30,746 nucleotides of DNA from Actinomycetota bacterium (GCA_035573935.1 DATLZP010000115.1:1-30746), one strand, 5' to 3'; shown: positions 1,261 to 15,778, counted from the first letter of the stretch. Notes: generated by a model from the sequence alone, not told the origin. Numbers and translations are program-made.

Positions 1261-2546
1261 GACGGCGCCTCCGCGCCCAGCACGCGGTGGACCTCCACCG
1301 GCTCCTCCCGCCCCCGGACGTGGCGGACCCCGGCCGGCTCGGCCCGGACGGCGGGCGCCGCCCTCACGGTGCTCGCCGCCGCCACGATCTCCCCGCCCTC
1401 CGCCTCGGCCTGCAGCCGGGAGGCCACGTTCACGGCGTCCCCCACCACCGTGTACTCGAGGCGGCCACCGCCCCCGACCGTGCCGGCGATGACGAGGCCG
1501 GTGTTCACCCCGATCCCCACGAGGAGCGGGGGGAGCCCCGGGATCCCCCACCCCTCGGCGTTCAGCTCCTCCTGACGGGCCTGCATGGCGAGGGCGCAGC
1601 GCAGCGCCCGTTCCGCGTGGTCGGGCTGGGGGTCCGGCGCCCCGAACACGGCCATCACCGCATCCCCCTGGAACTTGTCGATCGTCCCCCCGTGGGCCAG
1701 CACGACCTCCGCCATCGCGGAGAGGTGCCGCCCCACGACCGTCGCGACGTCCCGGGCCGGGAGCTGCTCGGCGAGCGTCGAGAACCCGCGGATGTCGGAG
1801 AACAGGACGGTCACCTCGACCTCCTGGGGCGCGATCGCCGTCTCCGGCCGGGCGGCCAAGAGGTCGGCGAGCTGCTGGGGGACGAAGGAGGCCAGGGTCC
1901 GACGCGAGGCGGCCTGCTCGACCACCGCGGCGTGCAGGCGCTTGAACTCGTCGATCAGGCCGCCATCCGCCCGCCCGGCCATCCGCCGGAACAGCTCGGT
2001 GACCCGCCGGTCCACGGCCTCCTGCGTCGTGCCGAGCTCCGCGGCCATCTCCGCGTAGCCCATGCCCCGGGCCATGAGGTCGAGGATCCGGCGGTCCTCC
2101 TCCGCCGCGTCCCGCCGTCCCGACAGGCGCTCGGCGATCGCCGGGTCCACCGCCGACCCCCCCGCCGCCACCTCCCGGATGGCCCGGACCAGCTCGTCCC
2201 CCTGGGCGATGCGGTCCTTCAGCAGGTAAGCGAGGCCGCTCTGGCCCTTCCCCAGGAGCGCGATGGCGTAGTCCTCGTCGTCGTGGGCCGAGAGGACGAC
2301 GACGCCGGTCCCGGGGTGCCGGCCCCGGATCTCGTGCGCGCAGTCGATCCCCTCCAGCCGGAAGTGGGGAGGCATCTTGATGTCGGTGACCACCACGTCC
2401 GGAACGGTGTCCGCGGCCGCGCGGAGCAGCCCGGGCGCGTCCGCCGCCACCCCCACCACCTCGATGTCCGGGAACGATTCGAGCAGGGCCCGCACGCCCT
2501 CCCGGACCAGGACGTTGTCCTCACCCAGCACGACCCGGATCGTCAC
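1257..2546 (-). CDS. Response regulator with REC, LuxR-like HTH remnant and class III adenylate cyclase domain (429 aa)
   Basis: REC: VVLGEDN, TDIKMP, VLSAH, YLLK. HTH-like: RILDLMARGMGYAEMAAELG. Cyclase: VLFSDIRGF, IDKFQGDAVMA, GVNTG, EYTVVGDAVNVASRL. Start set at GTG 2546 from SD GGAGG spacing (track uses 2552). Confidence 0.92.
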   Translation of the reverse strand: MTIRVVLGEDNVLVREGVRALLESFPDIEVVGVAADAPGLLRAAADTVPDVVVTDIKMPPHFRLEGIDCAHEIRGRHPGTGVVVLSAHDDEDYAIALLGKGQSGLAYLLKDRIAQGDELVRAIREVAAGGSAVDPAIAERLSGRRDAAEEDRRILDLMARGMGYAEMAAELGTTQEAVDRRVTELFRRMAGRADGGLIDEFKRLHAAVVEQAASRRTLASFVPQQLADLLAARPETAIAPQEVEVTVLFSDIRGFSTLAEQLPARDVATVVGRHLSAMAEVVLAHGGTIDKFQGDAVMAVFGAPDPQPDHAERALRCALAMQARQEELNAEGWGIPGLPPLLVGIGVNTGLVIAGTVGGGGRLEYTVVGDAVNVASRLQAEAEGGEIVAAASTVRAAPAVRAEPAGVRHVRGREEPVEVHRVLGAEAPS

Positions 2547-2614
2547 GCCCACCCCTCCCCGCCCGGCGCCCGCCCGGGGCCCGGCCGCTCGTCCGACGCG
2601 CCCGGCGCCCCGTG

Positions 2615-2626: not shown

Positions 2627-3295
2627 GTGGTCCGCGTCGTGTTCGCCGAGGATAACTACCTCGTGCGGGAGGGGACCGCCGCGCTCCTCTCCGCCCGCGA
2701 GGACGTGGATCTCGTGGCCACCGTGGGCGACCTCGACGGCCTGCTGGCCGCGGTCGCCGAGCACGGCCCGGAGGCCGTCCTCACCGACATCCGGATGCCC
2801 CCCACCCACACCACCGAGGGGATCCAGGCCGCGAAGAGGATCCGCGACGAGCACCCGGGCACCGGCGTCGTGGTCCTGTCCCAGTACGCGGAGGAGGAGT
2901 ACGCCTACGAGCTCCTGCGCGACGGCGCGGCCGGCCTCGGCTACCTGCTCAAGGAACGCGTGGCGGACGTGGACGAGGTGGTCCGGGCGCTCCACGAGGT
3001 GGCCCGCGGCGGCTCCGTCCTCGACCCGAAGGTGGTCGAGGCCCTCGTGGCCCGCAAGGACCGCCTGGCGCACTCCCCGCTGGCCCAGCTCACCGACCGG
3101 GAGCGCGAGGTCCTGGCGCACATGGCCGAGGGGAAGAACAACGCCGCGATCGCCAGGGCGATGTTCCTCACCGAGCGGGCCGTCGAGAAGCACATCAACT
3201 CGCTGTTCCACAAGCTCGGCCTGTCGGAGGAGCGTGAGATCCACCGCCGCGTGATGGCCGTCCTCACCTTCCTCCGGGAGGAGCCGGTCGGCTAG
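2627..3295 (+). CDS. NarL/LuxR-family response regulator (REC + HTH)
   Basis: AEDN, TDIRMP, VLSQY, YLLK; HTH LTDREREVLAHMAEGKNNAAIA...VEKHINSLFHKLG. Confidence 0.96.
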   Translation: MVRVVFAEDNYLVREGTAALLSAREDVDLVATVGDLDGLLAAVAEHGPEAVLTDIRMPPTHTTEGIQAAKRIRDEHPGTGVVVLSQYAEEEYAYELLRDGAAGLGYLLKERVADVDEVVRALHEVARGGSVLDPKVVEALVARKDRLAHSPLAQLTDREREVLAHMAEGKNNAAIARAMFLTERAVEKHINSLFHKLGLSEEREIHRRVMAVLTFLREEPVG

Positions 3296-3992: not shown

Positions 3993-4403
3993 CTACTGCG
4001 CGCGGCGGGTGTCCACGATGAACACCGAGCACGGCGCGTGCTGCACGACGGCGTTCGGTACGCTGCCCAGGAACCACCGGCGCCTCCCGTGGGTCCCGCG
4101 GTTGCCGACGACGATCACGTCCACCCCCTCCTCGTCGGCCACCTGGCAGATCGTCTCGGCGGGATCGCCCGCCTCGGCCCGGGTCCGGACCTTCACGGCG
4201 GGGAACCGCGACGGCATCCGGGCCAGGTAGGCCTCCGGGTCCGGGACCTTCCCGGGGTCGAACACCTCCCGGGCATCGAGGGGCGGCCGGACGTAGAGCA
4301 CGAGCAGCTCCGCCTCCCTGGCTCCGGCCAGCGCGGCGGCGGTCTCCACCGCCAGGTCGGCCGCGGCCGAGGTGTCGGTCCCCACCAGCAGCTTCTGGAT
4401 CAT
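3993..4403 (-). CDS. Universal stress protein, single domain, ATP-binding type
   Basis: LLVGTDTS, GDPAETI, VIVVGNRG-x9-GS (G-2X-G-9X-GS), VVQHAPCSVFIV; SD GAGGAGG. Confidence 0.95.
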   Translation of the reverse strand: MIQKLLVGTDTSAAADLAVETAAALAGAREAELLVLYVRPPLDAREVFDPGKVPDPEAYLARMPSRFPAVKVRTRAEAGDPAETICQVADEEGVDVIVVGNRGTHGRRRWFLGSVPNAVVQHAPCSVFIVDTRRAQ

Positions 4404-4477: not shown

Positions 4478-4608
4478 GTGAGAGGCTTGAGCGCCACCCC
4501 GGGCGGAAGGTTGCCGACGCGGCCCGGGGGAGGCAGCACGCGGCAGGGATGAGGGACTCCCCCCACGATGGTTCGGACCACACCCTTCCCGGGGCCGGAC
4601 CCGGAGGG

Positions 4609-4614
4609 CAGCAT
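4609..4614 (+). promoter_or_regulatory. -10-like CAGCAT, probable leaderless promoter of the kinase operon
   Basis: 6 nt before ATG 4621; same context (AGCATCGCSCC-RTG) as 2616-2629. Confidence 0.4.
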
Positions 4615-4620
4615 CGCGCC

Positions 4621-6723
4621 ATGACCGCACGGACGGCCTCTCGCCTGGCCTGGGCCGCGGTGGCCCTGTTCGCGGCGCTCGTCGCCAGCGGGCTCGCCCT
4701 CCTCGCCCGGAACGGACGGGGAGGCCTGGGCGGGAACCTCGCCATGGTCGTCGTCTTCGGATCGATCGTCGGGGTGGGGGCCCTCGTCGTCTCCCACCAG
4801 CCGGGGAACCCCATCGGATGGCTGTTCCTCTTCATCGGGACCGGCGCCGCGCTGAGCTTCGCCTCCGGGGAGTACGAGTTCCTGGCCTACGTGGCGGACC
4901 CCGCTCCGCCCCCGGGCCGGGCGATCGCCGCCTGGGTCTCCGGCTGGGCCTGGGTCGTGTCGATCGGCCCGATCATGACCTACGTTCCCCTCCTCTTCCC
5001 CGACGGCCGGCTGCCATCGCCCCGCTGGCGGCCGGTGGCGTGGGCGGCCGGTGCGCTGCTCCTCGTGTCCGCCCTCCTGTTCGCCGTGGCCGAGCGCCTG
5101 GAGATCACCGACGGGGTCCGGGTCCCCAACCCCTTCGGCCTGGTGGACCTCCCGGTGGCCTCCATCGACCAGGCGACCTTCCTCGCCTTCGTCGCGGTGG
5201 CCCTCCCCTCGGTCGCCGCCCTGATCGTGCGGTTCCGGAGGTCGACCGGCGAGGAGCGGCTCCGCCTCAAGTGGTTCACGTTCGGGATCGGGGTCCTGGC
5301 CGGGTTCTTCCTGTTCAGCGCGGCGGTCCAACTGCTCGGCCTGGGGGATGAGGTGCTCGGGGGGGACCTCATCGCGGCGGCCGCGTTCATGGCCGTCCCC
5401 GTGGGGGCGGGGATCGGGATCCTCCGCTACCAGCTCTTCGACATCGACCTCGTGATCCGGAAGACGGTCGTGTTCGGCCTCCTGGCCGCCTTCATCACGA
5501 TCGTCTACGGGGTCGTCGTGCTGGGGATCCCGGCCCTGGTGCTCGGCGTCCGGCCCACCGGGATGGGCGCGCTCCCCCTCGTGGCGGCGGTCGTGCTCGC
5601 GATCGCGTTCCAGCCCGTCCGCCGGCGGGCGCAGCACTGGGCGAACCGCCTCGTCTACGGGGAGCGGGCCACGCCCTACGAGGTCCTCTCGGAGTTCGCC
5701 CAGCGCATGAGCGGGACGTTCGCGGCGGAGGAGCTCCTGCCGCGGACGGCCCGGATCCTGAACGAGGGCACGGGGGCCGAGCGGACCGACGTGTGGCTGC
5801 GGGTGGGGGACGAGCTCCGGCCGGCCGCATCCTGGCCCTCCGGTGGACCCGAGCCCGGGCCGCTGCGGGTGGGGGCCGACGGCGAGCTGCCCCCGATCCC
5901 GGGCGCGGACGCCGCGTACCCCGTGCGACACCAGGACGAGCTGCTGGGCGCGGTCTCGATCCGCAAGCCTCGCGACGAGCCGATCACGGACACCGAGGAC
6001 CGGCTGCTGGCCCACGTCGCGGCCCAGGCCGGCCTCGTGCTGCGGAACGCTCGGCTCACCGAGGAGCTCCGGAGGACGATCGACGAGCTCCGGGCCTCCC
6101 GCCAGCGCCTGGTGACGGCCCAGGACGAGGAACGTCGGCGGCTGGAGCGGAACATCCACGACGGGGCCCAGCAGCAGCTCGTGGCCCTCACCGTGCAGCT
6201 CCGGCTCCTCGAGGAGCGGATCGGGCGGGACCCGGAGGGGGCGAGGGAGGCCGCGTCGCAGCTCCGGGGGGCGGCCGCCGAGGCCCTCGAGGACCTCCGG
6301 GACCTGGCCCGGGGGATCTACCCCCCGCTCCTCGCCGACAAGGGGCTCCCGGCGGCGATCGAGGCCCAGGCCCGCAGGTCGAACACCCCCATCGACGTTG
6401 AGGCGGACGGCGTGGCACGCCACCCGCCCCAGACGGAGGCCGCCGTCTACTTCTGCTGCCTCGAGGCGATCCAGAACGCGACGAAGCACGCGGGCGCGGC
6501 CCGCATCGTCGTCCGGATCTCGGAGGGGGATGGCGAGCTTCGCTTCGAGGTCGAGGACGACGGTCGGGGGTTCGAGCCGGCCGCGATCCCCCGAGGGACC
6601 GGGCTGCAGAACATGTCCGACCGGCTGGAGGCGCTGGGGGGCACCCTCGAGATCCGATCCGTCCCGGGCCGCGGCACGACGATCCGGGGACGGCTGCCCA
6701 CGGACGGGGGGCGGGCGGGATGA
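4621..6723 (+). CDS. Membrane sensor histidine kinase HK1 (multi-TM, GAF-like, HisKA_3, HATPase_c), 700 aa
   Basis: H-box ERRRLERNIHDGAQQQL (His codon 6157-6159), N-box EAIQNATKHA, DDGRGF, GTGLQNM. Start placed at ATG 4621. Confidence 0.93.
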   Translation: MTARTASRLAWAAVALFAALVASGLALLARNGRGGLGGNLAMVVVFGSIVGVGALVVSHQPGNPIGWLFLFIGTGAALSFASGEYEFLAYVADPAPPPGRAIAAWVSGWAWVVSIGPIMTYVPLLFPDGRLPSPRWRPVAWAAGALLLVSALLFAVAERLEITDGVRVPNPFGLVDLPVASIDQATFLAFVAVALPSVAALIVRFRRSTGEERLRLKWFTFGIGVLAGFFLFSAAVQLLGLGDEVLGGDLIAAAAFMAVPVGAGIGILRYQLFDIDLVIRKTVVFGLLAAFITIVYGVVVLGIPALVLGVRPTGMGALPLVAAVVLAIAFQPVRRRAQHWANRLVYGERATPYEVLSEFAQRMSGTFAAEELLPRTARILNEGTGAERTDVWLRVGDELRPAASWPSGGPEPGPLRVGADGELPPIPGADAAYPVRHQDELLGAVSIRKPRDEPITDTEDRLLAHVAAQAGLVLRNARLTEELRRTIDELRASRQRLVTAQDEERRRLERNIHDGAQQQLVALTVQLRLLEERIGRDPEGAREAASQLRGAAAEALEDLRDLARGIYPPLLADKGLPAAIEAQARRSNTPIDVEADGVARHPPQTEAAVYFCCLEAIQNATKHAGAARIVVRISEGDGELRFEVEDDGRGFEPAAIPRGTGLQNMSDRLEALGGTLEIRSVPGRGTTIRGRLPTDGGRAG

Positions 6724-8792
6724 GGCCGGGGACGGCCCGCGGGGTGGCGTGGGGCGCCTTCGGGACGGCCGTCGCCTCCGCGGCGGGAGGGATCGCGGTC
6801 AGCGTGGCGAGCGGAGCAGGGCGGGGCGAGGTCGGCGACCCGGTGATCGGCCTCGGGCTCCTCGTGTTCGGCACCGTCGGAGCCCTCGTCGCGTCGAGGC
6901 GGCCGGGGAACGCGATCGGATGGATCTTCGTGTCGGTGGCGCTCTTCATCGGTGTCATCGGCGCGCTCGAGGGGATCCAGGACCGCCTCGCCGCCGGCGG
7001 GGACTCATGGGCGGCGCTCGGGGAGGACGCCTCGCTCGCCGCCCGTCTCCTGGCCTGGATCGGCGGATGGGCCTGGGTCCCCTCCATCTTCGTCCCGACG
7101 ACGTTCCCCCTGCTGCTGTTCCCCGACGGCCGTCTGCCATCGCGCCGGTGGCGAGCCCTCTTCTGGGCGGCCGCGATCGGGCTCCCGGCGTTCTCGCTCT
7201 CGATGGCCTTCGATCCCTCGAACTACGGGGGTGGACGGCTCCCCCTGGGGATCCGCCCTCCTGGTCCCCTCGTGGCCGCCTCCGGGCTGGGAAGCCTCCT
7301 GCTGGTCGGCGGGGTGATCGGCGGAGGCGCGGCGGTGGTCACCCGGCTCCGGCGGTCCTCGGGCGAGGAGCGCCAGCAGATCAAGTGGCTCGCGTACGCC
7401 GGCGTCCTCGCCGCGGTCTGCCTCGTCGGGAGCTTCCTCACCGGGGGCATCCTCGCCGCCCTGGGCGTGGATGCCGCCGAGGGCACCGCGGTCGCCGACG
7501 TGCTGAACCTCGTCGTCCTCGTCTCGCTGCTCGCGCTCCCCATCGCCATGGGGTTCGCGATCCTCCGCTACCGCCTCTACGACATCGACCTGGTCATCCG
7601 GAAGACGGTCGTCTACGGGGCGCTCGCGGCGTTCATCACGCTCGTGTACGTGGGCGTCGTGGCCGGGATCGGGGCACTGATCGGGAGCCGCGGGAACGTC
7701 CTGCTGTCGGGGCTCGCCGCCGCGGTCGTCGCGGTGGCGTTCCAGCCGGTGCGCCACCGGGCCCAGCGCCTGGCGAACCGGCTCGTGTACGGGAGGCGGG
7801 CCACACCGTACGAGGTCCTCGCCGAGTTCTCCGCCCGGCTGGCCGGCTCCTACTCCCTCGACGACGTCCTGCCCCGCATGGCCCGCGTCCTCGCCGAGGG
7901 CACGGGCGCCGCCCGCGCGACGATCTGGCTCCGGTCGGCGCAGGGACACCGCGCCGCCGCCACCTGGCCGGCAGGCACCCACCCGGCACCGCTCGATCCC
8001 GGGTTCGAGGTCCGCCATCAGGGGGAGGTGCTCGGGGCGATCTCCGTCGCGACGCCCCCCGACGAGCCGCTCACACCGGTTCAGGAACAGCTGATCCGCG
8101 ACGTGGCCGGGCAGGCGGGGCTGGTGCTCCGGAACGTCCGGCTGATCGAGGACCTCCGGGCCTCCCGCCAGCGCCTCGTAGCCGCCCAGGACGAGGAACG
8201 TCGGCGGCTGGAGCGGAACATCCACGACGGGGCCCAGCAGCAGCTCGTGGCCCTCACGGTGCAGCTCCGGCTCCTCGAGCAGCGGATCGAGCGGGACCCG
8301 GAGGGGGCGAGGGAGGCCGCGGCCCAGCTCCGGGGAGCGGCCGCCGAGGCGCTCGAGGACCTCCGGGACCTGGCCCGGGGGATCTACCCCCCGCTCCTCG
8401 CGGACAAGGGGCTCCCGGCGGCGATCGAGGCCCAGGCCCGGAAGGCCCCGGTCCCGGTCAGGCTCCAGGCGGACGGCGTGGGGCGCTACCCCCGGGAGGC
8501 GGAGGCCGCCGTGTACTTCTGCGTCCTGGAGGCCCTCCAGAACGCGGCGAAGCACGCGGGGGGGTCGGAGGTCCGGGTCCGGCTGTGGGCCTCGGAAGGC
8601 GAGCTGGCCTTCGCCGTGGAGGACGACGGGCCGGGCTTCGACCCCTCCACCACCCCCCGGGGGGCCGGCCTCCAGAACATGGCCGATCGGATCGAGGCCC
8701 TGGGCGGCTCGCTCGAGGTCCGGAGCTTGCCCGGTGCGGGCACGACCGTGGCCGGGAGGCTGCCCACCCACCACTCGGAGGCGACGCCGTGA
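6720..8792 (+). CDS. Membrane sensor histidine kinase HK2, 690 aa
   Basis: ATGA overlap with HK1; ERNIHDGAQQQL, EALQNAAKHA, DDGPGF, GAGLQNM. Confidence 0.94.
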   Translation: MRPGTARGVAWGAFGTAVASAAGGIAVSVASGAGRGEVGDPVIGLGLLVFGTVGALVASRRPGNAIGWIFVSVALFIGVIGALEGIQDRLAAGGDSWAALGEDASLAARLLAWIGGWAWVPSIFVPTTFPLLLFPDGRLPSRRWRALFWAAAIGLPAFSLSMAFDPSNYGGGRLPLGIRPPGPLVAASGLGSLLLVGGVIGGGAAVVTRLRRSSGEERQQIKWLAYAGVLAAVCLVGSFLTGGILAALGVDAAEGTAVADVLNLVVLVSLLALPIAMGFAILRYRLYDIDLVIRKTVVYGALAAFITLVYVGVVAGIGALIGSRGNVLLSGLAAAVVAVAFQPVRHRAQRLANRLVYGRRATPYEVLAEFSARLAGSYSLDDVLPRMARVLAEGTGAARATIWLRSAQGHRAAATWPAGTHPAPLDPGFEVRHQGEVLGAISVATPPDEPLTPVQEQLIRDVAGQAGLVLRNVRLIEDLRASRQRLVAAQDEERRRLERNIHDGAQQQLVALTVQLRLLEQRIERDPEGAREAAAQLRGAAAEALEDLRDLARGIYPPLLADKGLPAAIEAQARKAPVPVRLQADGVGRYPREAEAAVYFCVLEALQNAAKHAGGSEVRVRLWASEGELAFAVEDDGPGFDPSTTPRGAGLQNMADRIEALGGSLEVRSLPGAGTTVAGRLPTHHSEATP

Positions 8793-10900
8793 CTCCACGC
8801 ACCGCCTCCCGCCTCGCGTGGTCGCTGTCCGGGGTATCCGCGACGGCGATGCTGCTCTCGTTGCTCGTCAGCCAGCTCCGCCAGGGTGGCAGCACCGGCT
8901 TCGGCACCATCGGCGTCGGCGCCGCACTCACGTTCCCCCTCGTCGGTGGGCTCGTGGGGTCCCGCCGCCCAGAGAACGCCATCGGATGGCTCCTCGGCGT
9001 GACCGGCTTTTCTCTCGGGATGGCGGCGTTCTCGCAGCAGTACTCCCACTACGCACTGATCGATCGGAGCGGTCTTCCGCTCGGCGACCTCGCGGCATGG
9101 GTGGGAACCTGGATCTGGCCCACCGGCATCGTGATCCTCTTCGTCTTCGCGCTCCTGCTCTTCCCCACTGGTCACCTTCCCTCGCGAAGGTGGCGCCCCG
9201 TGGCCTGGTTGGGCGGGCTGAGCACCGCTCTGGGGACGATCCCCGTGGCCATCACAGCGTGGCCCATCCGAGGCCCGATCCTGCTGGAGATCGGGGATGA
9301 TGCACCCGGCGCAGCGACCGCCGGTTTCAAGCTCGCCTTCGATCTCCAGGTCGCGGCCATCCTGCTGATGTTCGCGCTGGGGCTGGTCTCGGCGGTGTCG
9401 GTCGTGCTGCGGTTCAGGAGGTCGGCGGGAGAGGAGCGCCAGCAACTGAAGTGGTTCGCCCTCGGTGGTTCGCTCCTGGTCGTCGGTTTCATCCTCAATA
9501 GCCCACTGTTCCACCTCGGCGGCGACGTGCTCCCGGTCCTCCTCATCCCCCTCCTGCCTGCTGCCATCGGGATCGCCATCCTGAAGTACCGCCTCTACGA
9601 CATCGACGTCGTCATCAGCAAGGCGGTCCTCTTCGGCGCGCTCGCGGCCTTCATCACGGTCGTCTACGTGGGGGTCGTGGTCGGCGTGGGGTCGGTGCTC
9701 GGTAGGACCGAGCCCGACCTCACCCTCCAGGTGGCGGCGACGGCGCTCGTCGCGCTCGCGTTCCAGCCGGTGCGGGAGGGAGCCCGGCGGCTGGCGAACC
9801 GCCTGGTGTACGGGGAGCGGGCCGAGCCCTACGAGGTCCTCGCTCGATTCGCCTCCCGGGCCGCGGGGACGTACGCGACCGAGGACGTGCTCCCGCGCAC
9901 GGCGCGGGTGATCGGGGAGGGGACCGGCGCCGCCCGAGCCGAGGTGTGGCTCCGGGTGGGGGAGGAGCTCCGGCTCGGCGCGGCCTGGCCGGAGGACGGG
10001 GGCGGGCGCCCCCGGGCGCTCCCCATGGCCGACGGCCGGCTCCCGGAGGTCCCCGGCGCCACCGAGCTGGTGCCGGTCGCGCAGCGCGGGGAGCTCCTGG
10101 GCGCGGTGGCCGCCACGAAGCCACCGGGGGAGCCGCTCACGCCCGCCGAGGCGTCGCTCCTCGACGACCTGGCGAAGCAGGCCGGCCTGGTGCTCCGCAA
10201 CGCCCGGCTCACCGAGGAGCTCCGGGCCCGCCTGGAGCAGATCGCTGCCCGGGCGGAGGAGCTCCGGGCGTCCCGCCAGCGGATCGTGGCGGCGCACGAC
10301 GCGGAGCGGCGACGCCTTGAGCGGAACATCCACGACGGCGCGCAGCAGCACCTCGTGGCCCTCGCCGTCAAGCTCCGCCTGGCCCGGGAGCTCCTGGCTC
10401 GCGATCCGGGCCGGGCGGCCGCGCTCCTGGGGGAGCTCCGCGCCGAGATCGACCAGGCGCTCGAGACCCTCCGGGACCTGGCGGGTGGGATCTACCCGGC
10501 GGTCCTCGAGGAACGGGGCATCGCCGCGGCCCTGGAGGACCAGGCCGGACTGGCGGACGTCCCCGTGGAGATCGAGGGGGACGGCCTGGCCCGGTGGCCG
10601 ATCGAGACCGAGGCCGCGGTGTACTTCTCCTGCCTGGAGGCCCTGCAGAACGCGCTCAAGCACGCCGGGGCCCGCCGGGTCCGCATCCGGCTGACCGAGG
10701 CGGCGGGACACCTCCGCTTCTCCGTCGCCGACGACGGCAGGGGATTCGATCCCGCCACGGTCCCCGTGGGGGCCGGCCTCCGCAACATGGCGGACCGGGT
10801 GGAAGCGTTGGGGGGCCACCTCGAGGTCCGATCGGTCCCCGGCCTGGGGACGACGGTCGAGGGCGCCGTCCCCGTGGAGATCCCGGGGTCGGCCCGATGA
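8789..10900 (+). CDS. Membrane sensor histidine kinase HK3, 703 aa
   Basis: GTGA overlap with HK2; true start inside track ORF 6398..10900 (MTPRTASRLAW); ERNIHDGAQQHL, EALQNALKHA, DDGRGF, GAGLRNM. Confidence 0.93.
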   Translation: MTPRTASRLAWSLSGVSATAMLLSLLVSQLRQGGSTGFGTIGVGAALTFPLVGGLVGSRRPENAIGWLLGVTGFSLGMAAFSQQYSHYALIDRSGLPLGDLAAWVGTWIWPTGIVILFVFALLLFPTGHLPSRRWRPVAWLGGLSTALGTIPVAITAWPIRGPILLEIGDDAPGAATAGFKLAFDLQVAAILLMFALGLVSAVSVVLRFRRSAGEERQQLKWFALGGSLLVVGFILNSPLFHLGGDVLPVLLIPLLPAAIGIAILKYRLYDIDVVISKAVLFGALAAFITVVYVGVVVGVGSVLGRTEPDLTLQVAATALVALAFQPVREGARRLANRLVYGERAEPYEVLARFASRAAGTYATEDVLPRTARVIGEGTGAARAEVWLRVGEELRLGAAWPEDGGGRPRALPMADGRLPEVPGATELVPVAQRGELLGAVAATKPPGEPLTPAEASLLDDLAKQAGLVLRNARLTEELRARLEQIAARAEELRASRQRIVAAHDAERRRLERNIHDGAQQHLVALAVKLRLARELLARDPGRAAALLGELRAEIDQALETLRDLAGGIYPAVLEERGIAAALEDQAGLADVPVEIEGDGLARWPIETEAAVYFSCLEALQNALKHAGARRVRIRLTEAAGHLRFSVADDGRGFDPATVPVGAGLRNMADRVEALGGHLEVRSVPGLGTTVEGAVPVEIPGSAR

Positions 10901-12987
10901 GGTTCCGCGCGACCTCCGCCGTCGCGTGGGGCGCGTGGGCGGCCTTCGCCCTCGGCCTGGGCTGGACCCTCGCCGTCCGGGGACCGGCGCTCTCCGGGGA
11001 CCTGCTCCAGGACATCCCGCTGATCGTGGCCTTCTCCGCCTTCCCCACCGTCGGCGCCGTGGTGGCCTCGCGACGCCCCCGGAACCCGATCGGCTGGCTG
11101 TTCCTCGGGATCGGGGTCCTGGCCGCCGCGGGCGCCGCCAGCGAGACCTACGCCGACATGGCGCTTCCCCGTCCCGGGTCCCCTCCGATGCTCGCCGTCC
11201 TGGCCGCCTGGATCCAGGCCTGGTACTGGTACCCGCTCCTGGCCATGGCGACCGTGTTCCCGCTGCTCCTGTTCCCGGCGGGGCTGCCGTCCCGGCGCTG
11301 GCGACCGGTCCTGTGGCTGGCGGTGATCTCCGTCCTGGCGACCACGGCCGCCGCCGCGCTCCAGCCGACGCTGTCGGGGGGCGGGAGGACGATCCCGAAC
11401 CCGTTCGGCGTCCGGTGGACCGGCGCGCCGGACGTCGAGGAGACCGCGTTCTTCCAGGCGTTCTCGCTCGTGTTCGGGGGCACCCTGATGGCGGCCGCTG
11501 CCTCCCTCGTCGTGCGGTTCCGGCGGTCCCGGGGGGATGAGCGGCTCCAGCTCAAGTGGTTCGTCTTCGCGGCCGGCGTCCTCGCCGCGTCGATCATCCT
11601 GGCCACGGCCGTCCCCGCCTTCGACCGCTCCGCGGCCGGCGGGCTGATGACGGGGTTCGCGCTGGCGCTCATCCCCATCGCGTGCGGGATCGCGATCCTC
11701 AGGCACCGCCTCTACGACATCGACCTCGTCCTCAACCGGGCGGTGGTCTTCGGGGCGTTGGCCGCGTTCATCGGCGCCGTCTACGTGGCGATCGTGGTGG
11801 GGCTGGGATCCCTGGCCGGTCGGGTGGGCGAGCCGAGCGTGCCGCTCCAGATCGCGGCCACGGCGGTCGTCGCGGTGGCGTTCCAGCCGGTCCGGGAGCG
11901 GGTCCAGCGGCTCGCCAACCGGCTCGTGTACGGCGAGCGGGCCACCCCCTACGAGGTCATGGCCGGCTTCGCCCACCGCATGGCCGACACGCTGTCCGTG
12001 GACGAGACGCTGCCGGCCATGGCGGAGGTGGCGGCCCGAGGTGTCGGCGCCAGGTGGGGGCGGGTGGGCATCCGGCTCCGCGACGGCGGCGAGCGGGCGG
12101 CGAGCTGGCCCCCGGGAGCGCCGGAGCCTCCGGCCCCCATCGCCATCCCGGTCACGCACCGGGGTGAGCCGGTCGGGGAGATCGCCGTCGCCAAGGCGCC
12201 CGGCGACCCCCTCACGCCGGCCGAGCGGCGGCTGCTGGAGGACCTGGCCTCCCAGGCCGGCCTGGCCCTGCGGAACGCGGGGCTCGCCGCCGAGCTCGAG
12301 GCCCGGCTCGGGGAGCTCACGGCGCAGGCGGAGGACCTGCGCCGGTCCCGGGAGCGGCTGGTGACGGCCCGGGACGAGGAACGCCGGCGCCTGGAGCGGG
12401 AGATCCGGGAGGGCCCGGAGCGGCGCCTGCTCGCGATGCGCGCCGACGTGGACCGCGCGGCCCGCCTGGCGACGACCGACCCCGGGGCGGCCGGCGCCGT
12501 CCTCGACGACCTGGGGGCGCTCGCGAACACCACGCTCGAGGAGCTCCGGGACCTGGCCCGGGGGATCTACCCCCCGCTCCTCGCCGAGGAGGGCCTGCTG
12601 GCGGCGCTCCGGGCGCACGTCCGCAAGGCGGGGATCGCGGCCGAGATCTCCGCGGACGGCGGGTCGGCCGCCGCGCGCCTGGCCCCGGAGGTGGAGGCCG
12701 GGATCTACTTCTGCCTGGTCCACGCGCTCCGCAACGTGCAGCGGCACGCGGCCGGCGCCGCGGTCTCCGTGCGCATCTCGCGGGACGGCGACGGCGTCGG
12801 GTTCGAGGTCGTGGACCGGGGCCCGGGGTTCGATCCGGCCGCCACCCGGACCGGGCAGGGGCTCCAGGTGATGCGGGACCGGGTCGAGGCCCTGGGTGGC
12901 CGGCTCGACGTGTCGAGCGCGCCGGGCCGGGGCACCGTGGTCCGGGGCCGGATCCCGCTCGCCCTCGGAGCCGGGGCGGCCCCGTGA
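10897..12987 (+). CDS. Kinase-like sensor HK4 lacking the phosphoacceptor His (pseudokinase), 696 aa
   Basis: ATGA overlap with HK3. H-box reads EREIREGPERRL (His replaced by Arg, codon 12406-12408); N-box HALRNVQRHA; DRGPGF and GQGL retained. Confidence 0.88.
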   Translation: MRFRATSAVAWGAWAAFALGLGWTLAVRGPALSGDLLQDIPLIVAFSAFPTVGAVVASRRPRNPIGWLFLGIGVLAAAGAASETYADMALPRPGSPPMLAVLAAWIQAWYWYPLLAMATVFPLLLFPAGLPSRRWRPVLWLAVISVLATTAAAALQPTLSGGGRTIPNPFGVRWTGAPDVEETAFFQAFSLVFGGTLMAAAASLVVRFRRSRGDERLQLKWFVFAAGVLAASIILATAVPAFDRSAAGGLMTGFALALIPIACGIAILRHRLYDIDLVLNRAVVFGALAAFIGAVYVAIVVGLGSLAGRVGEPSVPLQIAATAVVAVAFQPVRERVQRLANRLVYGERATPYEVMAGFAHRMADTLSVDETLPAMAEVAARGVGARWGRVGIRLRDGGERAASWPPGAPEPPAPIAIPVTHRGEPVGEIAVAKAPGDPLTPAERRLLEDLASQAGLALRNAGLAAELEARLGELTAQAEDLRRSRERLVTARDEERRRLEREIREGPERRLLAMRADVDRAARLATTDPGAAGAVLDDLGALANTTLEELRDLARGIYPPLLAEEGLLAALRAHVRKAGIAAEISADGGSAAARLAPEVEAGIYFCLVHALRNVQRHAAGAAVSVRISRDGDGVGFEVVDRGPGFDPAATRTGQGLQVMRDRVEALGGRLDVSSAPGRGTVVRGRIPLALGAGAAP

Positions 12988-15192
12988 GCCGCGGCGCTCG
13001 CGCGGAGCCCCCGGAGCCACTCCCCGTCCCGACCGGGGGCGGCCCGGGAGGAGGACACGAGGCGAGCGAGCGGGGACGGAGGCGCCTCCCCTGGGTCGTG
13101 TGGGCGGTCGGCTTCCTCGTGATCTTCCCGGGAGCGATGGTCCTCGGGATCCGCAACGGCAGCCTCTCGCAGGACCCGATGCTCATCATGCTTTCCATCG
13201 GATTGGTGACCGGCTACGCCGCCGTCGGCGCGCTGGTGGCATCGAGGAGCTCGGTCCCGGTGATCGGCTGGCTCATGCTCGTCATCGGCGTGGGGTTCCT
13301 CCTCAGCGCGGCGGCCGCCGAGTACGTGATCTACGCGTACCGGACCGACCCGGGCGCTCTGCCCCTCCGGTCCGCGGTGGCCTGGCTGTGGAGCTGGATC
13401 GACGTGCCCGCGATCATCTCGGTGCTCTACCTCTTGCTCCTCTTCCCCACCGGGCGGGTGCCATCCCACAGGTGGCGGTCCCTCCCCCCCGTGATCGGCC
13501 TGTTCAGCCTCATGGCCGTGGCCGGCCAGGTCGTCCGATCGGCCCCGATCGAGCCGACCGATGGCGTCCGCGTCCCCAACCCGACCGCCGTGCCGGAGCT
13601 CGACGCGGCGGCCGACGCCATGCTCACGGCCGCCGCGTTCGTCCTGGTCCCCGCGGCGATCGCCTGCGCCATGGCCCCGGTGCTCCGGTTCCAACGCTCG
13701 ACGGGGGTGGAGCGTCAGCAGATCCGCTGGCTGGCCTTCGCGGTCGCGCTGGGCGGCGTCGCGCTGGTCGTGGTGCTGGTGAGCGGGATCGGCCTCGGTC
13801 CGAAAGAGACGGTCGTGAACGACGTGGCGTTCTTCGCGTTCTTCGCCTGCGTCGGCATCGGGATCCCCATCGCGGCCGGGGTGGCCGTCCTTCGGTACCG
13901 CCTCTACGCCCTGGACCTCGTGGTCCGGAAGACCCTGGTGTTCGGCTTGCTCGTCGTGTCGGCGTCGATCGCCTACGGCGCGGTCGTCGTCTCGATCGGG
14001 TTCCTGGTGGGGGAGCGCAACACCCCGCTCTCGATGTTCGCGCTCGGGATCGCGCTCGGAACCGCGTTCCCGCTCTTCCGGCGGCAGGCCACCCGGCTGG
14101 CCGACCGGATCGTGTACGGGCGGCGAGCCACGCCGTACGAGGTGCTCTCCGGCTTCGCGGAGCGGGTGGCGAGGACGTACGCGAGCGAGGACGTGCTCCC
14201 CCGGATGGCCCAGATCCTCGCCCAGGGGACCGGGGCCGAGGTGGCCCGGGTGTGGCTCCTGATGGGGCGGGAGCTCCGGGCCGAGGCGACGTGGCCGCCG
14301 GATGGGGGGCCCGCCGGTCCCGCCCGGGTCGCCGGCGACGCCCTCCCGGAGCTCCCCGGCGGCGAGCGGGCCTTCGAGGTGCGGCACCAGGGGGAGCTGC
14401 TCGGGGCGCTCAGCCTGCGGATGCCCCAGAGCGACTCCCTCGACCCGGCCCGGGAGAGGCTCGTGGCCGACCTCGCGTCCCAGGGCCGGGCTGGTCCTCC
14501 GGAACGTCCGGCTGATCCAGGAGCTCAGGGGGTCCCGACGTCGACTGGTCGCCGCCCAGGACGAGGAGCGCCGGCGGATCGAACGCAACCTCCACGACGG
14601 CGCGCAGCAGCAGCTGGTGGCGCTCTCCGTGCGGCTCCGCCTAGCGGAGCAGCTCGTCGAGCGGGATGCGGCCAAGGCCAAGGAGGCGATCGGGCGGATC
14701 CAGGCCGAGGCCACCGAGGCGCTCGAGAACCTCCGGGATCTGGCCCGGGGGATCTACCCGCCGCTCCTCGCCGACCGGGGGCTCCCCGCCGCCCTCGAGG
14801 CCCAGGCCCGGAAGGCGTCCCTCCCGGTGCGGGTGGAGGCCTCCGGGGTCGACCGCTACCCACGGGAGGTGGAATCCGCGGTCTACTTCTGCGTCCTCGA
14901 GGCCCTCCAGAACGCGGCGAAGTACGCCCGGGCCGAGCACGTGATGGTCCGGCTCTCCGCCGCGCACGACGAGCTGCGGTTCGAGGTCTCCGACGACGGT
15001 GCGGGGTTCGACCCGGGGTCCGCGCATGGCGGCACGGGGCTCCGGGGGATGGCCGACCGGGTGGAGGCCGTGGGCGGCTCCCTCCAGGTCCGCTCGGCCC
15101 CAGGGTCGGGGACCTCGGTCGTCGGACGGGTGCCGGTCGGCACGGGAGGGACGCGGGAGGACGGGCTCCATCCCGGTGGGACCACCGGCTAG
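12984..15192 (+). pseudogene. Sensor histidine kinase HK5 split by a +1 G insertion (about 735 aa if repaired): recent pseudogene or sequencing error
   Basis: GTGA overlap with HK4. The sensor/GAF half is in the frame of 12984. CAG-G-GCC at 14481-14487 shifts the rest (AGLVLRN...ERNLHDGAQQQL...EALQNAAKYA...DDGAGF) into the frame of ORF 14302..15192. Confidence 0.85.
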
Positions 15193-15201
15193 CCCCAGCG
15201 G

Positions 15202-15283: not shown

Positions 15284-15288
15284 TCGGA

Positions 15289-15666
15289 TCAGTCCGCGCC
15301 GGCCGTCGCGGCCGACCAGGCCTGCTCCAGCCGGTCGGGGGCGAACACCGCCTTCGGGATGTAGGCGGCGGCGCCGCACTCGGCGGCCCGGGGCGCGTAC
15401 TCCTCCTCCTCGTAGGTGGAGAGCAGGAGGACGACCACGGAGTCCCCCTCGGCCAGGATGCGCCGGGTGGCCTCCAGCCCATCGATCCCCGGGAGGTTCA
15501 CGTCCATCAGGACCAGGTCGGGCCGGAGCTCCCGGGCCTTCTCCACGGAGTCCTCGCCGGTCTCGGCCTCCCCCGCGACCTCGAAGCCCTCCGTGGCCTC
15601 CACCACCATCCGGGCGGCCAGGCGGAACGGCGCCTGGTCGTCCACGATCAGCACCCGGACGCTCAC
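15289..15666 (-). CDS. Single-domain response regulator (REC only), 125 aa
   Basis: MSVRVLIVDDQ, LVLMDVNLPGIDG, LLSTY, YIPK; SD GGAGGTGA before GTG 15666; no output domain. Confidence 0.93.
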   Translation of the reverse strand: MSVRVLIVDDQAPFRLAARMVVEATEGFEVAGEAETGEDSVEKARELRPDLVLMDVNLPGIDGLEATRRILAEGDSVVVLLLSTYEEEEYAPRAAECGAAAYIPKAVFAPDRLEQAWSAATAGAD

Positions 15667-15685
15667 GAGCGTCACCTCCACGCCA

Positions 15686-15731
15686 AGGTTCCCACCGGCC
15701 GGGCGTCCCGGCAGTGATGCTGGCACCACTC
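15686..15731 (-). promoter_or_regulatory. Promoter of the single-domain REC: GAACCT -10-like element plus an 8-2-8 inverted repeat
   Basis: AGTGATGC-TG-GCACCACT at 15713-15730 (7/8 symmetric), centred about 30 nt upstream of GAACCT (15691-15686). Confidence 0.5.
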
Positions 15732-15778
15732 CCCGGGAGGAGGAGGACGCCCCAGCCGTGTCCCCCCAGGGGCGGACG

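What the first reader, a model, noticed from the sequence alone, without database searches (positions are those of the whole stretch)
10897..12987. Embedded pseudokinase: phospho-His and phosphatase motif both lost
Seen: NIHDGAQQQL in the paralogues becomes EIREGPERRL (His to Arg at 12406-12408; DxxxQ lost). The N-box Glu is replaced by His, while N, G1 and G2 remain. The ORF is full length, its sensor is intact and it is coupled on both sides. Established: HisKA_3 kinases need the His for autophosphorylation and DxxxQ for phosphatase activity. Inference: HK4 acts by heterodimerising, as an allosteric input, a dominant-negative brake or an ATP-binding trans partner. The clustered changes argue against a sequencing error.
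Basis: partly seen in the sequence, partly recalled or inferred. Interest (0 to 1): 0.7.

Follow-up and report, generated by a model that had tools for sequence, protein, structure and literature searches.

The report
Conserved histidine-less sensor kinase partner
The fourth of five back-to-back membrane sensor-kinase genes has permanently lost the histidine it would need to signal, yet it is kept under normal selection in dozens of uncultured soil Actinomycetota, always directly behind one particular active sister kinase, so it is a working "dead" kinase that most likely regulates or completes that sister.

Summary
HK4 (10897-12987) is a full-length HisKA_3-type sensor kinase paralogue. Arg (CGG, 12406-12408) replaces the phospho-acceptor His, the DxxxQ phosphatase motif is gone, the N-box Glu is His, and N, G1 and G2 are intact.

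It is neither an error nor a decaying gene.
- It belongs to one old clade of His-less paralogues (SH-aLRT 100) found in 60 of 79 species-level genome loci.
- dN/dS is 0.22-0.40, similar to its active neighbour.
- ATP-binding residues are conserved, but the regulator-docking helix has lost its conservation.

The clade is sister to the HK3-type kinase. Both share an invariant 43-residue GAF-to-H-box linker, while other paralogues have 29 or 36 residues. The pseudokinase gene nearly always directly follows the HK3-type gene, usually with an ATGA or GTGA overlap.

Best reading (0.6): HK4 is an ATP-binding, non-phosphorylatable partner of HK3 specifically, most likely in a mixed dimer. Physical interaction is not shown; the complex prediction gave only weak support.

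This scan found the same family before on other DNA (e1-1242136, e1-1212094, e1-2483806, e1-4596354). My three literature searches found no description of it, and no NCBIfam model reaches its cut-off. It is a new variant of the known class of histidine pseudokinases (DivL, PsmA, FasB/FasC-like pairs).

The parts
10897..12987 (+). HK4: histidine-less HisKA_3-type sensor kinase paralogue (pseudokinase), 696 aa
   Evidence: Open frame. Pfam HisKA_3 27.6 bits, HATPase_c 47.8, GAF. Member of the His-less clade.
10897..11901 (+). Membrane sensor region of HK4 (residues 1-335, about nine predicted helices). No Pfam family.
   Evidence: AF2 model helices 3-307. Aligns with the paralogues. dN/dS 0.14 against the 95% relative. 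Equally distant from all paralogue classes.
11902..12291 (+). Linker helix and GAF domain (residues 336-465)
   Evidence: Pfam GAF/GAF_2. dN/dS 0.14-0.21.
12292..12621 (+). Signalling helix and DHp domain (residues 466-575). The GAF-to-H-box linker is 43 residues, as in HK3.
   Evidence: Continuous helix 441-527 plus 529-554. Linker 43 aa in 38/38 HK4-type and 53/53 HK3-type. dN/dS 0.17-0.30.
12406..12408 (+). Arg504 (CGG) at the phospho-acceptor His position
   Evidence: Arg in 38 of 63 degenerate paralogues of the species-level loci; otherwise Ser, Gln, Glu, Asn or His.
12409..12423 (+). E505-G-P-E-R509: the DxxxQ phosphatase motif is replaced. E505 and G506 are nearly invariant in the clade and Pro507 is common.
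12622..12984 (+). CA (HATPase_c) domain. N-box His609 (12721-12723) and Asn613 (12733-12735), G1 D640-F645 (12814-12831), G2 G653-M659 (12853-12873).
   Evidence: N613, D640, G642, G644, F645 and G655 are invariant in the clade alignment A2. Nearest solved relatives: DevS/DosT CA and DesK DHp-CA.
8789..10900 (+). HK3: canonical sister kinase (H-box NIHDGAQQH), the proposed partner
   Evidence: Sister clade. 62 of 65 HK3-type genes with a visible downstream gene are followed by a degenerate partner.
10897..10900 (+). ATGA overlap of the HK3 stop and the HK4 start
   Evidence: An ATGA or GTGA overlap is a candidate start in 13 of the 14 orthologues whose 5' end is on the contig.
12984..12987 (+). 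GTGA overlap of the HK4 stop and the HK5 start
12984..15192 (+). HK5: canonical paralogue, interrupted in this strain by one extra base near 14483
   Evidence: Run X1 (which may be the source sample) and run X2 of a second study carry the extra base; a related strain and L044 do not.
4549..8792 (+). HK1 (4549-6723) and HK2 (6720-8792): canonical paralogues of the same array
2627..3295 (+). NarL/LuxR-type response regulator of the island
   Evidence: Pfam Response_reg + GerE. Conserved position in 11 related islands.
15289..15729 (-). Stand-alone receiver protein at the distal end of the array
   Evidence: Conserved next to holB in related islands.
1257..2552 (-). Receiver-adenylate cyclase, divergent from the NarL regulator
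   Evidence: Conserved synteny.
3993..4403 (-). Universal stress protein between the regulator and the array

Best explanation
HK4 is a maintained histidine pseudokinase.

**Shown**
- It has lost the phospho-acceptor His (Arg504), the DxxxQ phosphatase motif and the conservation of the regulator-docking helix.
- It keeps its membrane sensor, GAF domain, dimerisation helices and the residues that bind ATP.
- It belongs to an old orthologous clade that arose with the HK3-type kinase from one duplication.
- It is almost always encoded immediately after that kinase, usually with overlapping stop and start codons.

**Inferred**
- HK4 and HK3 assemble as they are made into a mixed complex, most simply a DHp heterodimer held in register by their equally long 43-residue signalling helices.
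- That complex would have two different membrane sensors but only one phosphorylatable His and one regulator-docking face, both on HK3.
- HK4 then sets HK3's kinase/phosphatase balance according to a second input. It would do so either allosterically or by lending its ATP-loaded CA domain to HK3's His in trans, as proposed for FasB/FasC.
- HK3 passes phosphate to the shared NarL-type regulator and the other receivers of the island.
For: **1. The loss of catalytic residues is real.**

**2. One clade.**
- His-less paralogues form one side of a branch with SH-aLRT 100 when the H-box columns are left out (62 rows, cytoplasmic part, 88 rows).
- They group with the HK3-type clade at 96.

**3. Selection.**
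- dN/dS is 0.22 against a 95% identical relative (dS 0.105), and 0.28-0.31 within the genus.
- For the same genome pairs HK4 against HK3 gives 0.31/0.43, 0.28/0.36, 0.40/0.45 and 0.36/0.26.
- End branches are as long as those of active paralogues.

**4. Spread.**
- About 100 of the best 120 database relatives carry R, S, Q or E at the His position, together with N-box Glu to Gln.
- 60 of 79 species-level loci hold such a paralogue.

**5. What is kept and what is lost.**
- N613, D640, G642, G644, F645 and G655 are invariant in the clade.
- Entropy of DHp helix 1 is 1.38, against 0.44 in HK3-type and 0.79 in other paralogues. All other regions are equally constrained.

**6. Pairing with HK3.**
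- 62 of 65 HK3-type genes with a visible downstream gene are followed by a degenerate partner.
- In genome G015 the stretch fetched holds only these two kinase genes of the family.
- An ATGA or GTGA overlap is a candidate start in 13 of the 14 orthologues whose 5' end is on the contig.
- The linker is 43 aa in 38/38 HK4-type, 14/14 other degenerate partners and 53/53 HK3-type. Other paralogues have 29 (59 cases), 36 (20) or 43 (3).

**7. Complex prediction of the two DHp-CA parts: weak support.**
- ipSAE was 0.55 and the best of 3 controls 0.00.
- The mark was reached by 58 of 80 solved complexes and by 2 of 110 mismatched pairs.
- At 0.60 or under, only 7 of those 80 solved complexes reached it, as did both mismatches that passed.
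- Runs agree in at least 94% of contacts, and partner pLDDT is at least 80.
- Solved kinase dimers exist, so the pass may come from memory.

**8. Precedent.** FasB/FasC are tandem kinase-like proteins that heterodimerise. One supplies the His and the other the ATPase domain (PMC12675982).
Against: - No experiment or strong computation shows that HK3 and HK4 touch. The complex score is weak, and any two kinases of this family might score alike.
- The shared 43-residue linker and the adjacency may simply be inherited from the duplication that made the two genes.
- HK3 keeps every residue needed to work alone as a homodimer, so it does not visibly depend on HK4.
- In a second family of the order (G025, G032) another canonical kinase gene lies between HK3 and the His-less gene.
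- About one in eight clade members keep a His at the site (DIHEGPE type), so loss of the His is not universal.
- In MAGs labelled Dormibacterota or Chloroflexota the degenerate partner has also lost the N-box Asn. ATP binding therefore cannot be essential to the shared function.
- Full-length trees place the window's genus unstably, because its membrane domain is equally distant from all classes.
Confidence: 0.6

Rival explanations
1. DivL-like reverse sensor. HK4 forms homodimers whose DHp-CA module binds the phosphorylated stand-alone receiver (15289-15729) or another receiver of the island. It passes that information back, through its own helices, to the active kinases of the array.
For: - A single-domain receiver is conserved at the end of the array in most of the related islands fetched.
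- DivL is a His-less kinase that reads DivK~P in this way (PMC4211667).
- The ATP-binding domain of HK4 is conserved.
Against: - The helix-1 surface that docks receivers is the one part of HK4 that has lost conservation: entropy 1.38 against 0.44-0.79.
- This model does not explain the strict adjacency and the equal linker with HK3 in particular.
Confidence: 0.14
2. General dominant-negative brake or scaffold. HK4 mixes with any kinase of the array (HK1, HK2, HK3, HK5) or sequesters the shared regulator, damping the whole island rather than pairing with HK3.
For: - All paralogues share nearly identical DHp cores, and the array is probably one transcript with coupled translation.
- Paralogous HisKA_3 kinases HrrS and ChrS can heterodimerise (PMC9491836).
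Against: - Linker lengths differ by one or two heptads between HK4 (43) and most other paralogues (29 or 36). This would put the GAF and DHp domains out of register in mixed dimers.
- Array size varies from 2 to 9 kinases while the HK3-HK4 pair stays.
- The regulator-docking helix is not conserved.
Confidence: 0.12
3. HK4 is still a kinase of another kind. Its intact ATP site phosphorylates a different residue, for example the clade-specific His574 or a Ser/Thr, or another protein.
For: - ATP-binding residues are invariant.
- His574 is nearly invariant in the clade, where active paralogues have Gln.
- Some clade members keep a His at position 504.
Against: - The N-box Glu is Gln in the clade and His here, and the N-box Lys is Arg. 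These are changes at catalytic positions.
- No alternative acceptor lies in helix 1.
- In other phyla the partner has lost the N-box altogether.
- The position of His574 relative to the ATP site could not be measured here.
Confidence: 0.07
4. Decaying pseudogene or sequencing/assembly error.
For: - The neighbouring HK5 carries a real frameshift in this strain.
- The array shows recombination and remodelling.
Against: - The frame is open and full length.
- dN/dS is 0.22-0.40.
- The same substitutions occur in a monophyletic clade across 60 species-level loci.
- A contig of run X1 (which may be the source sample) is identical over the H-box.
Confidence: 0.01

Closest known systems
FasB/FasC of group A Streptococcus (FasBCAX system; PMC12675982)
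   Same: - Two adjacent kinase-like membrane proteins.
- Two-hybrid data show heterodimers, not homodimers.
- Only one partner's His is needed, and the other partner's DHp plus ATPase domain is sufficient. This is the model for an 'ATP-binding trans partner'.
   Different: - It is a different kinase subfamily and regulator type (ComE-like).
- Degeneracy there is complementary: the FasC kinase domain is dispensable. Here HK3 keeps a complete ATPase domain.
- No multi-kinase array.
- The Fas interaction is shown by experiment. Here it is inferred.
DivL of Caulobacter crescentus (PMC4211667; bioRxiv 10.1101/812529)
   Same: - A conserved histidine-kinase fold without the phospho-acceptor His.
- It acts without kinase activity.
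- It controls a true kinase (CckA).
- A single-domain receiver is part of the circuit.
   Different: - DivL has Tyr at the site, belongs to the HisKA type, has PAS sensors and is not encoded next to its target.
- Its DHp surface binds DivK~P. In HK4 that surface is the least conserved part.
PsmA of Streptomyces venezuelae (PMC12963549)
   Same: An actinobacterial histidine pseudokinase conserved across a lineage. The residue at the His position is variable and the phosphatase motif is lost.
   Different: - PsmA is a cytoplasmic hybrid HisKA-type protein.
- Its ATP-binding motifs are also degenerate.
- It works with DivIVA at hyphal tips.
- HK4 is a membrane HisKA_3 protein with conserved ATP-binding residues, and it sits in a kinase array.
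RetS-GacS of Pseudomonas aeruginosa (PMC8498467) and HrrS-ChrS of Corynebacterium glutamicum (PMC9491836)
   Same: One sensor kinase regulates another by direct DHp contact. ChrS and HrrS are HisKA_3 paralogues that heterodimerise, and a laboratory-evolved ChrS pseudokinase changes signalling.
   Different: - RetS keeps its His and is unlinked to gacS.
- The ChrS pseudokinase is a laboratory frameshift that removes the ATPase domain, not a natural conserved family.
DesK, DevS/DosT, NarX-type HisKA_3 sensor kinases
   Same: These are the nearest solved relatives by sequence and fold: DevS CA E 4.5e-9, DesK E 7e-7, and DesK DHp-CA at Foldseek E 2.7e-8. They share the DHp-CA architecture and short ATP lid.
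   Different: They are active kinases and phosphatases with His and DxxxQ. HK4 has neither.

Membership tests
HisKA_3 (PF07730) sensor histidine kinases | Sequence match to the HisKA_3 DHp model above the gathering score | tested here: met
   27.6 bits against a cut-off of 24. The paralogues score 50.8-57.3. Most orthologues have no precomputed PF07730 hit.
HisKA_3 (PF07730) sensor histidine kinases | Phospho-acceptor His in the H-box | tested here: not met
   Arg504, CGG at 12406-12408.
HisKA_3 (PF07730) sensor histidine kinases | DxxxQ phosphatase motif directly after the His | tested here: not met
   E505-G-P-E-R509. The role of the motif is established knowledge from NarX work, not tested here.
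HisKA_3 (PF07730) sensor histidine kinases | HATPase_c domain with N, G1 and G2 boxes | tested here: met
   HATPase_c 47.8 bits. N613, D640xGxGF and G653xG are present and invariant in the clade. The N-box Glu is changed to His (Gln in the clade).
HisKA_3 (PF07730) sensor histidine kinases | ATP-dependent autophosphorylation and phosphotransfer to a NarL-type regulator | not testable with these tools
   Needs biochemistry.
Bacterial histidine pseudokinases (DivL, PsmA class) | Histidine-kinase fold lacking a phosphorylatable His at the H-box | tested here: met
Bacterial histidine pseudokinases (DivL, PsmA class) | Maintained by purifying selection across a lineage, not a decaying gene | tested here: met
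   dN/dS 0.22-0.40. Monophyletic clade with normal branch lengths. Found in 60 of 79 loci.
Bacterial histidine pseudokinases (DivL, PsmA class) | Biological function independent of autokinase activity | not testable with these tools
   Needs genetics and biochemistry.
Heterodimeric tandem kinase pairs (FasB/FasC type) | Two kinase-like genes adjacent and co-transcribed | tested here: met
   ATGA overlap. Adjacency holds in 62 of 65 cases. Co-transcription is inferred.
Heterodimeric tandem kinase pairs (FasB/FasC type) | Complementary requirement: the His of one partner, the ATPase domain of the other | tested here: inconclusive
   HK4 lacks the His and keeps ATP-binding residues. HK3, however, keeps both His and a complete ATPase domain.
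Heterodimeric tandem kinase pairs (FasB/FasC type) | Physical heterodimerisation preferred over homodimerisation | tested here: inconclusive
   Complex prediction gave weak support (0.55, best control 0.00) and cannot tell hetero- from homodimer preference. Equal 43-residue linkers are compatible with it.
HK4-type His-less clade of the actinobacterial kinase arrays (defined in this scan) | Non-His residue followed by E/D-G-P at the H-box; Arg492 and Gln495 upstream; His574 | tested here: met
   R504-E-G-P, Arg492 and His574 are present. Position 495 is Glu here, not Gln.
HK4-type His-less clade of the actinobacterial kinase arrays (defined in this scan) | N-box Gln...Asn with Arg in place of Lys (LQAxQNVxRHA) | tested here: met
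   LVHALRNVQRHA: Asn and Arg are kept. The Gln position is His in this lineage only, and Gln in genome G002 of the same genus.
HK4-type His-less clade of the actinobacterial kinase arrays (defined in this scan) | Encoded directly downstream of an HK3-type (NIHDGAQQH) kinase; 43-residue GAF-to-H-box linker | tested here: met

The most novel reading that the evidence does not exclude
HK3 and HK4 form an obligate asymmetric heterodimer. It would be a natural two-sensor, one-histidine kinase in which the dead subunit binds ATP and either phosphorylates the live subunit's His in trans or acts as a nucleotide-dependent allosteric switch. Two different membrane inputs would then be combined before any phosphate is passed on. 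This design would have been conserved since before the split of bacterial families, and in further degraded form across phyla.
Probability: 0.3. Interest if true: 0.75.

Novelty: new variant of a known kind. Interest (0 to 1): 0.55.

Why it matters
Dead kinases that control live ones are a major theme in eukaryotic signalling. Few bacterial histidine-kinase examples are known, each from a single model organism.

This family offers a natural, widespread and strictly paired case:
- the same substitution pattern (His to Arg, catalytic Glu to Gln, ATP pocket kept) recurs in dozens of species;
- the gene sits next to an active sister that can serve as an internal control.

It makes directly testable whether bacterial sensor kinases can work as designed heterodimers, how two sensors are combined upstream of one regulator, and whether nucleotide binding without catalysis has a regulatory role in this fold.

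It also matters for annotation. These genes are currently named 'sensor histidine kinase' or 'ATP-binding protein' and counted as active kinases.

Tried and rejected
- **Sequencing or assembly error at the H-box: rejected.** A contig of run X1 (which may be the source sample) and the orthologues agree.
- **Decaying pseudogene: rejected**.
- **Independent recent loss of His in this genus: considered.** A FastTree tree and a quick full-length tree placed the window's genus near HK3-type sequences.
  - The tree with the His-less group held together is 42.6 log-likelihood units better (p-AU 0.83).
  - The cytoplasmic-only tree unites the group at 100.
  - The instability comes from the membrane domain, which is equally far from all classes.
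- **First H-box regular expression.** It found nothing because of a mistake in the pattern. It was corrected.
- **dN/dS for HK2 against G002.** My coordinates were out of frame, so the value is discarded.
- **HK3 against L044.** Its dN/dS of 0.64 is not a measure of selection, because the first 250 residues are not orthologous.
- **NCBIfam.** No equivalog reaches its cut-off for HK4 or HK3.
- **Foldseek of the whole model.** It gave only kinase-core matches and nothing for the membrane sensor.
- **RNA evidence.** No RNA holder was listed for the stretch, so expression was not assessed.

Full report
**Setting**

The window is contig C115 of an 81%-complete metagenome-assembled genome (2.3 Mb, 419 contigs, about 75% G+C). 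Close relatives are all uncultured Actinomycetota from soil and sediment.

Five paralogous membrane sensor-kinase genes lie head to tail on the + strand:
- HK1, 4549-6723
- HK2, 6720-8792
- HK3, 8789-10900
- HK4, 10897-12987
- HK5, 12984-15192

Each has a multi-helix membrane region without a Pfam family, a GAF domain, a HisKA_3 DHp domain and HATPase_c.

The array is flanked upstream by a receiver-adenylate cyclase (1257-2552, minus strand), a NarL-type regulator (2627-3295) and a universal stress protein (3993-4403, minus strand). Downstream lie a stand-alone receiver (15289-15729, minus strand), holB and topA.

**Check of the observation**

- HK4 is an open 696-codon frame.
- Its start overlaps the HK3 stop (ATGA, 10897-10900). 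Its stop overlaps the HK5 start (GTGA, 12984-12987).
- In the alignment of the five paralogues the H-box NIHDGAQQ(Q/H)L becomes EIREGPERRL.
- The phospho-acceptor position is Arg504, codon CGG at 12406-12408. Asp505 is Glu and Gln509 is Arg, so the DxxxQ motif is gone.
- The N-box reads LVHALRN against LEALQN: the Glu is replaced by His609 and Asn613 is kept.
- G1 (D640-x-G-x-G-F) and G2 (G653-x-G-L) are intact.
- The HisKA_3 score falls to 27.6 bits, from 50.8-57.3 in the paralogues. It still lies above the gathering score of 24.
- A contig of run X1, assembled separately by Logan, is identical over 12307-12471; that run may be the source sample.

One point needs correcting. HK5, named as a possible partner, is split by one extra base near 14483. 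Contigs of two runs from two studies carry the extra base; one of them (X1) may be the source sample. A related strain and the 95%-identical locus L044 lack it and have an intact 697-codon gene.

**A conserved clade, not an accident**

A search of 41 related genomes found the kinase family in 34 of them, usually in several copies.
- In the 13 arrays I fetched, each has exactly one paralogue without the His. All other paralogues have a nearly invariant ERN(I/L)HDGAQQQLVAL.
- With the H-box columns left out, the 14 His-less proteins form one side of a branch (SH-aLRT 100). They group at 96 with the 14 HK3-type proteins (H-box NIHDGAQQH), apart from the other 34 paralogues.
- End branches are of ordinary length, about 0.5 in both groups.

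In the 5.8-billion-protein collection, about 100 of the best 120 relatives carry Arg at the His position, or less often Ser, Gln or Glu. They also share a set of other changes:
- Glu-Gly-Pro after the site;
- Arg and Gln before it;
- N-box Glu to Gln and Lys to Arg (LQAxQNVxRHA);
- G2 reading GMGxQIM.

Most of these proteins have no precomputed HisKA_3 hit.

In one genome per species, 60 of 79 loci recovered by two conserved peptides hold such a paralogue. The residue at the site is Arg in 38, Ser in 8, His in 8, Gln in 4, Glu in 4 and Asn in 1. Forty keep the N-box Gln...Asn pattern.

The window's own change of the N-box Glu to His is private to its lineage. Genome G002 of the same genus has Gln.

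**A caveat on the trees**

A FastTree tree and a quick full-length tree placed the window's genus near HK3-type sequences. Three results resolve this.
- The tree that holds all His-less proteins together is 42.6 log-likelihood units better than the one the free search found (p-AU 0.83).
- The membrane domain of the window's HK4 is equally distant from all classes. Its cytoplasmic part is clearly closest to the His-less clade.
- A tree of residues 336-690 without the H-box unites all 40 His-less rows at SH-aLRT 100.

**Selection**
- Against the 95%-identical relative L044, dN/dS is 0.22 (dS 0.105). By region it is 0.14 in the membrane sensor, 0.20 in the GAF part, 0.30 in the DHp and 0.44 in the ATPase domain.
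- Against the two genomes of the same genus it is 0.31 and 0.28, and the DHp part gives 0.17 and 0.23.
- For the same genome pairs the active neighbour HK3 gives 0.43 and 0.36. Two more distant pairs give 0.40 against 0.45, and 0.36 against 0.26.

The pseudokinase is therefore about as constrained as its live sister.

**What is kept and what is lost**

I compared column entropy in 38 His-less, 53 HK3-type and 82 other paralogues. The membrane sensor, GAF, signalling helix, DHp helix 2 and the ATPase domain are equally constrained in all three groups.

The one exception is DHp helix 1 from the H-box onwards (residues 491-525). Its entropy is 1.38 in the His-less clade, against 0.44 in HK3-type and 0.79 in the others.

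From established knowledge of kinase-regulator complexes such as DesK-DesR, this helix carries the acceptor His, the phosphatase motif and the residues that dock the response regulator. The clade has thus lost all three functions of that surface together.

In contrast, Asn613, Asp640, Gly642, Gly644, Phe645 and Gly655 are invariant in the clade alignment. Nucleotide binding is therefore probably retained in this lineage. This is an inference from motifs and was not measured.

The Glu-to-Gln change at the N-box position corresponds to the catalytic Glu of GHKL ATPases. There, from my own knowledge, it is the classical substitution that keeps ATP binding and stops catalysis. I did not test whether that applies to this family.

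His574 is nearly invariant in the clade, where active paralogues have Gln. I could not measure its distance from the ATP site.

**Pairing with HK3**
- Sister clades, one of each per array.
- Adjacency. Of 65 HK3-type genes with a visible downstream gene, 62 are followed directly by a degenerate paralogue. All 8 His-keeping clade members also follow an HK3-type gene. Some loci are counted twice because they were fetched twice.
- Array size ranges from two to nine kinases, and the pair persists. In G015 the stretch fetched holds only the pair.
- Of the 14 orthologues whose 5' end is on the contig, 13 have a candidate start in an ATGA or GTGA overlap with the upstream stop.
- Linker length. Between the end of the GAF domain and the H-box there are exactly 43 residues in 38 of 38 His-less proteins, in 14 of 14 further degenerate partners and in 53 of 53 HK3-type proteins. 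The other paralogues have 29 (59 cases), 36 (20) or 43 (3), which are steps of one heptad. Another first-stage note on this window (e1-5296849) had pointed to heptad steps.

A parallel coiled coil joining two different subunits needs equal lengths, so HK3 and HK4 are compatible with each other and with few others. Shared descent could explain the equality too.

**Complex prediction**

I sent HK3 residues 462-703 and HK4 residues 450-696 to the complex predictor, each with an alignment. The result was weak support.
- ipSAE was 0.55, and the best of three controls was 0.00.
- The mark was reached by 58 of 80 solved complexes and by 2 of 110 mismatched pairs.
- At 0.60 or under, only 7 of those 80 solved complexes reached it, as did both mismatches that passed.
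- The runs agree in at least 94% of contacts, and the partner's pLDDT is at least 80.

Dimers of this fold are solved, so the pass may reflect likeness. It cannot separate hetero- from homodimers.

**Structure**

The AlphaFold2 model has a mean pLDDT of 77.9. It shows about nine membrane helices, a small GAF-like domain, one continuous helix from 441 to 527 through the signalling helix and DHp helix 1, helix 2, and an ATPase domain.

The nearest solved structures are the DesK cytoplasmic parts (Foldseek E 2.7e-8). By sequence the nearest are the DevS and DosT ATPase domains, and DesK.

**Wider context**

The island order is conserved in most of the 13 related stretches fetched, across two families of the order. 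The order is receiver-cyclase, NarL regulator, stress protein, kinase array, stand-alone receiver, holB.

In MAGs labelled Dormibacterota or Chloroflexota, an HK3-type kinase is also flanked by degenerate partners. These have lost both the His and the N-box Asn. Whatever the partners have in common therefore cannot need ATP binding. This favours an allosteric role as the ancestral function. ATP binding would then be an added feature of the actinobacterial clade.

**Mechanism**

*Shown:* loss of the acceptor, the phosphatase motif and the conservation of the docking surface; retention of the sensor, the dimerisation helices and the ATP-pocket residues; purifying selection; strict pairing with HK3.

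*Inferred:* HK3 and HK4 assemble as they are translated into a mixed complex with two sensors, one His and one docking face. HK4 tunes HK3 either allosterically or by trans-phosphorylation.

I put 0.6 on this partner model as a whole. The rivals are:

| Rival | Confidence |
|---|---|
| DivL-like reader of a phosphorylated receiver | 0.14 |
| General brake or scaffold for the whole array | 0.12 |
| Kinase with another acceptor | 0.07 |
| Decay or error | 0.01 |

**Comparison with what is known**

Histidine pseudokinases are a recognised but small class.
- DivL: PMC4211667.
- PsmA: PMC12963549, read. Its ATP motifs are also degenerate.
- The laboratory-evolved ChrS variant, and HrrS-ChrS heterodimers: PMC9491836.
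- RetS-GacS: PMC8498467.
- FasB/FasC, the closest functional precedent: tandem kinase-like proteins that heterodimerise. FasC supplies the His and FasB supplies the ATPase domain (PMC12675982).

From memory, not checked here:
- The split Rv0600c/Rv0601c kinase of Mycobacterium tuberculosis is another two-protein kinase.
- Collins and Childers reviewed two-component pseudoenzymes in 2021.

HK4 fails two defining features of an active HisKA_3 kinase, the His and DxxxQ. It meets the definition of a pseudokinase.

My three literature searches did not turn up a natural, conserved HisKA_3 pseudokinase family paired with an active sister. No NCBIfam equivalog reaches its cut-off.

**Earlier notes of this scan**

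The same family was found before on other DNA, with follow-up reports that reached similar conclusions (e1-1242136, e1-1212094, e1-2483806, e1-4596354). I tested the shared claims myself here: clade, selection and pairing.

To my knowledge of those summaries, this report adds:
- the invariant 43-residue linker shared only with HK3-type;
- the selective loss of conservation in helix 1;
- the clade-wide Glu-to-Gln and Lys-to-Arg changes with an otherwise invariant ATP pocket;
- the status of HK5 in this strain.

**Unpublished data**

Genome G023 was flagged as unpublished. It entered only the tally and one canonical row of the alignment. No claim in this report rests on it.

**Verdict**

The protein is a real, conserved pseudokinase of a known kind in a new family and arrangement. 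The partner is most likely HK3, and the mode of action is open.

Noticed in passing
window 14478-14486 (HK5, 12984-15192): HK5 is split by one extra base (the reading cag-G-gcc near 14483). Contigs of run X1 (which may be the source sample) and of run X2 from a second study carry it. A related soil strain (X3, X4) and locus L044 lack it and have an intact 697-codon gene. It looks like a recent real frameshift in this population rather than an assembly error.
   Followed up: partly
L044:1519-3630 against window 8789-10900: The HK3 of the 95%-related contig shares about 94% identity over the C-terminal 400 residues, but only 20-40% over the first 250 residues. This points to a swapped membrane sensor through recombination among paralogues. 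The same contig has a 259-aa kinase remnant upstream and an IS3-type transposase gene after HK5.
   Followed up: partly
L003:3-1931 / L046:2400-4328 (genome G001): The HK4 orthologue of G001 has the His-less H-box (EIREGPERQ) but a canonical N-box and G1 (LEALQNVAKYA, DDGVGF). Its ATPase domain is only 41% identical to the window's, and the contig ends there. This is either gene conversion from a neighbouring paralogue or a chimeric assembly.
   Followed up: no
L059, L080, L092, L093, L099, L102, L105, L110, L112, L117: In MAGs labelled Dormibacterota or Chloroflexota, an HK3-type kinase (NIHDGAQQH) is flanked by one or two degenerate partners. These have lost both the His (EIRAGVQ-like) and the N-box Asn, yet keep the 43-residue linker. 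The live/dead pair thus spans phyla, with deeper decay of the ATPase domain there.
   Followed up: partly
window 1257-16994 and loci L031-L042: The whole island is syntenic across two families of the order: receiver-cyclase, divergent NarL regulator, stress protein, kinase array of 2-9 genes, stand-alone receiver, holB. Only the number of kinases varies.
   Followed up: partly
window 12616-12618 (His574 of HK4): A His that is nearly invariant in the His-less clade (AHxRKxG) where active paralogues have Gln. It lies in the first helix after the DHp domain. It is a candidate for a clade-specific function or an alternative acceptor, and its geometry was not measurable here.
   Followed up: no
L061, L073, L087, L095, L097, L098, L114; proteins P0055, P0086: Members nested inside the His-less clade carry a His at the site (DIHEGPE) together with the clade's Gln N-box. 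They are scattered in the tree, which suggests repeated Arg/His exchanges (CGN/CAY) at a position that is no longer fixed.
   Followed up: partly
all arrays: GAF-to-H-box linkers of the whole kinase family come in three lengths only: 29, 36 and 43 residues. These are exact heptad steps.
   Followed up: yes
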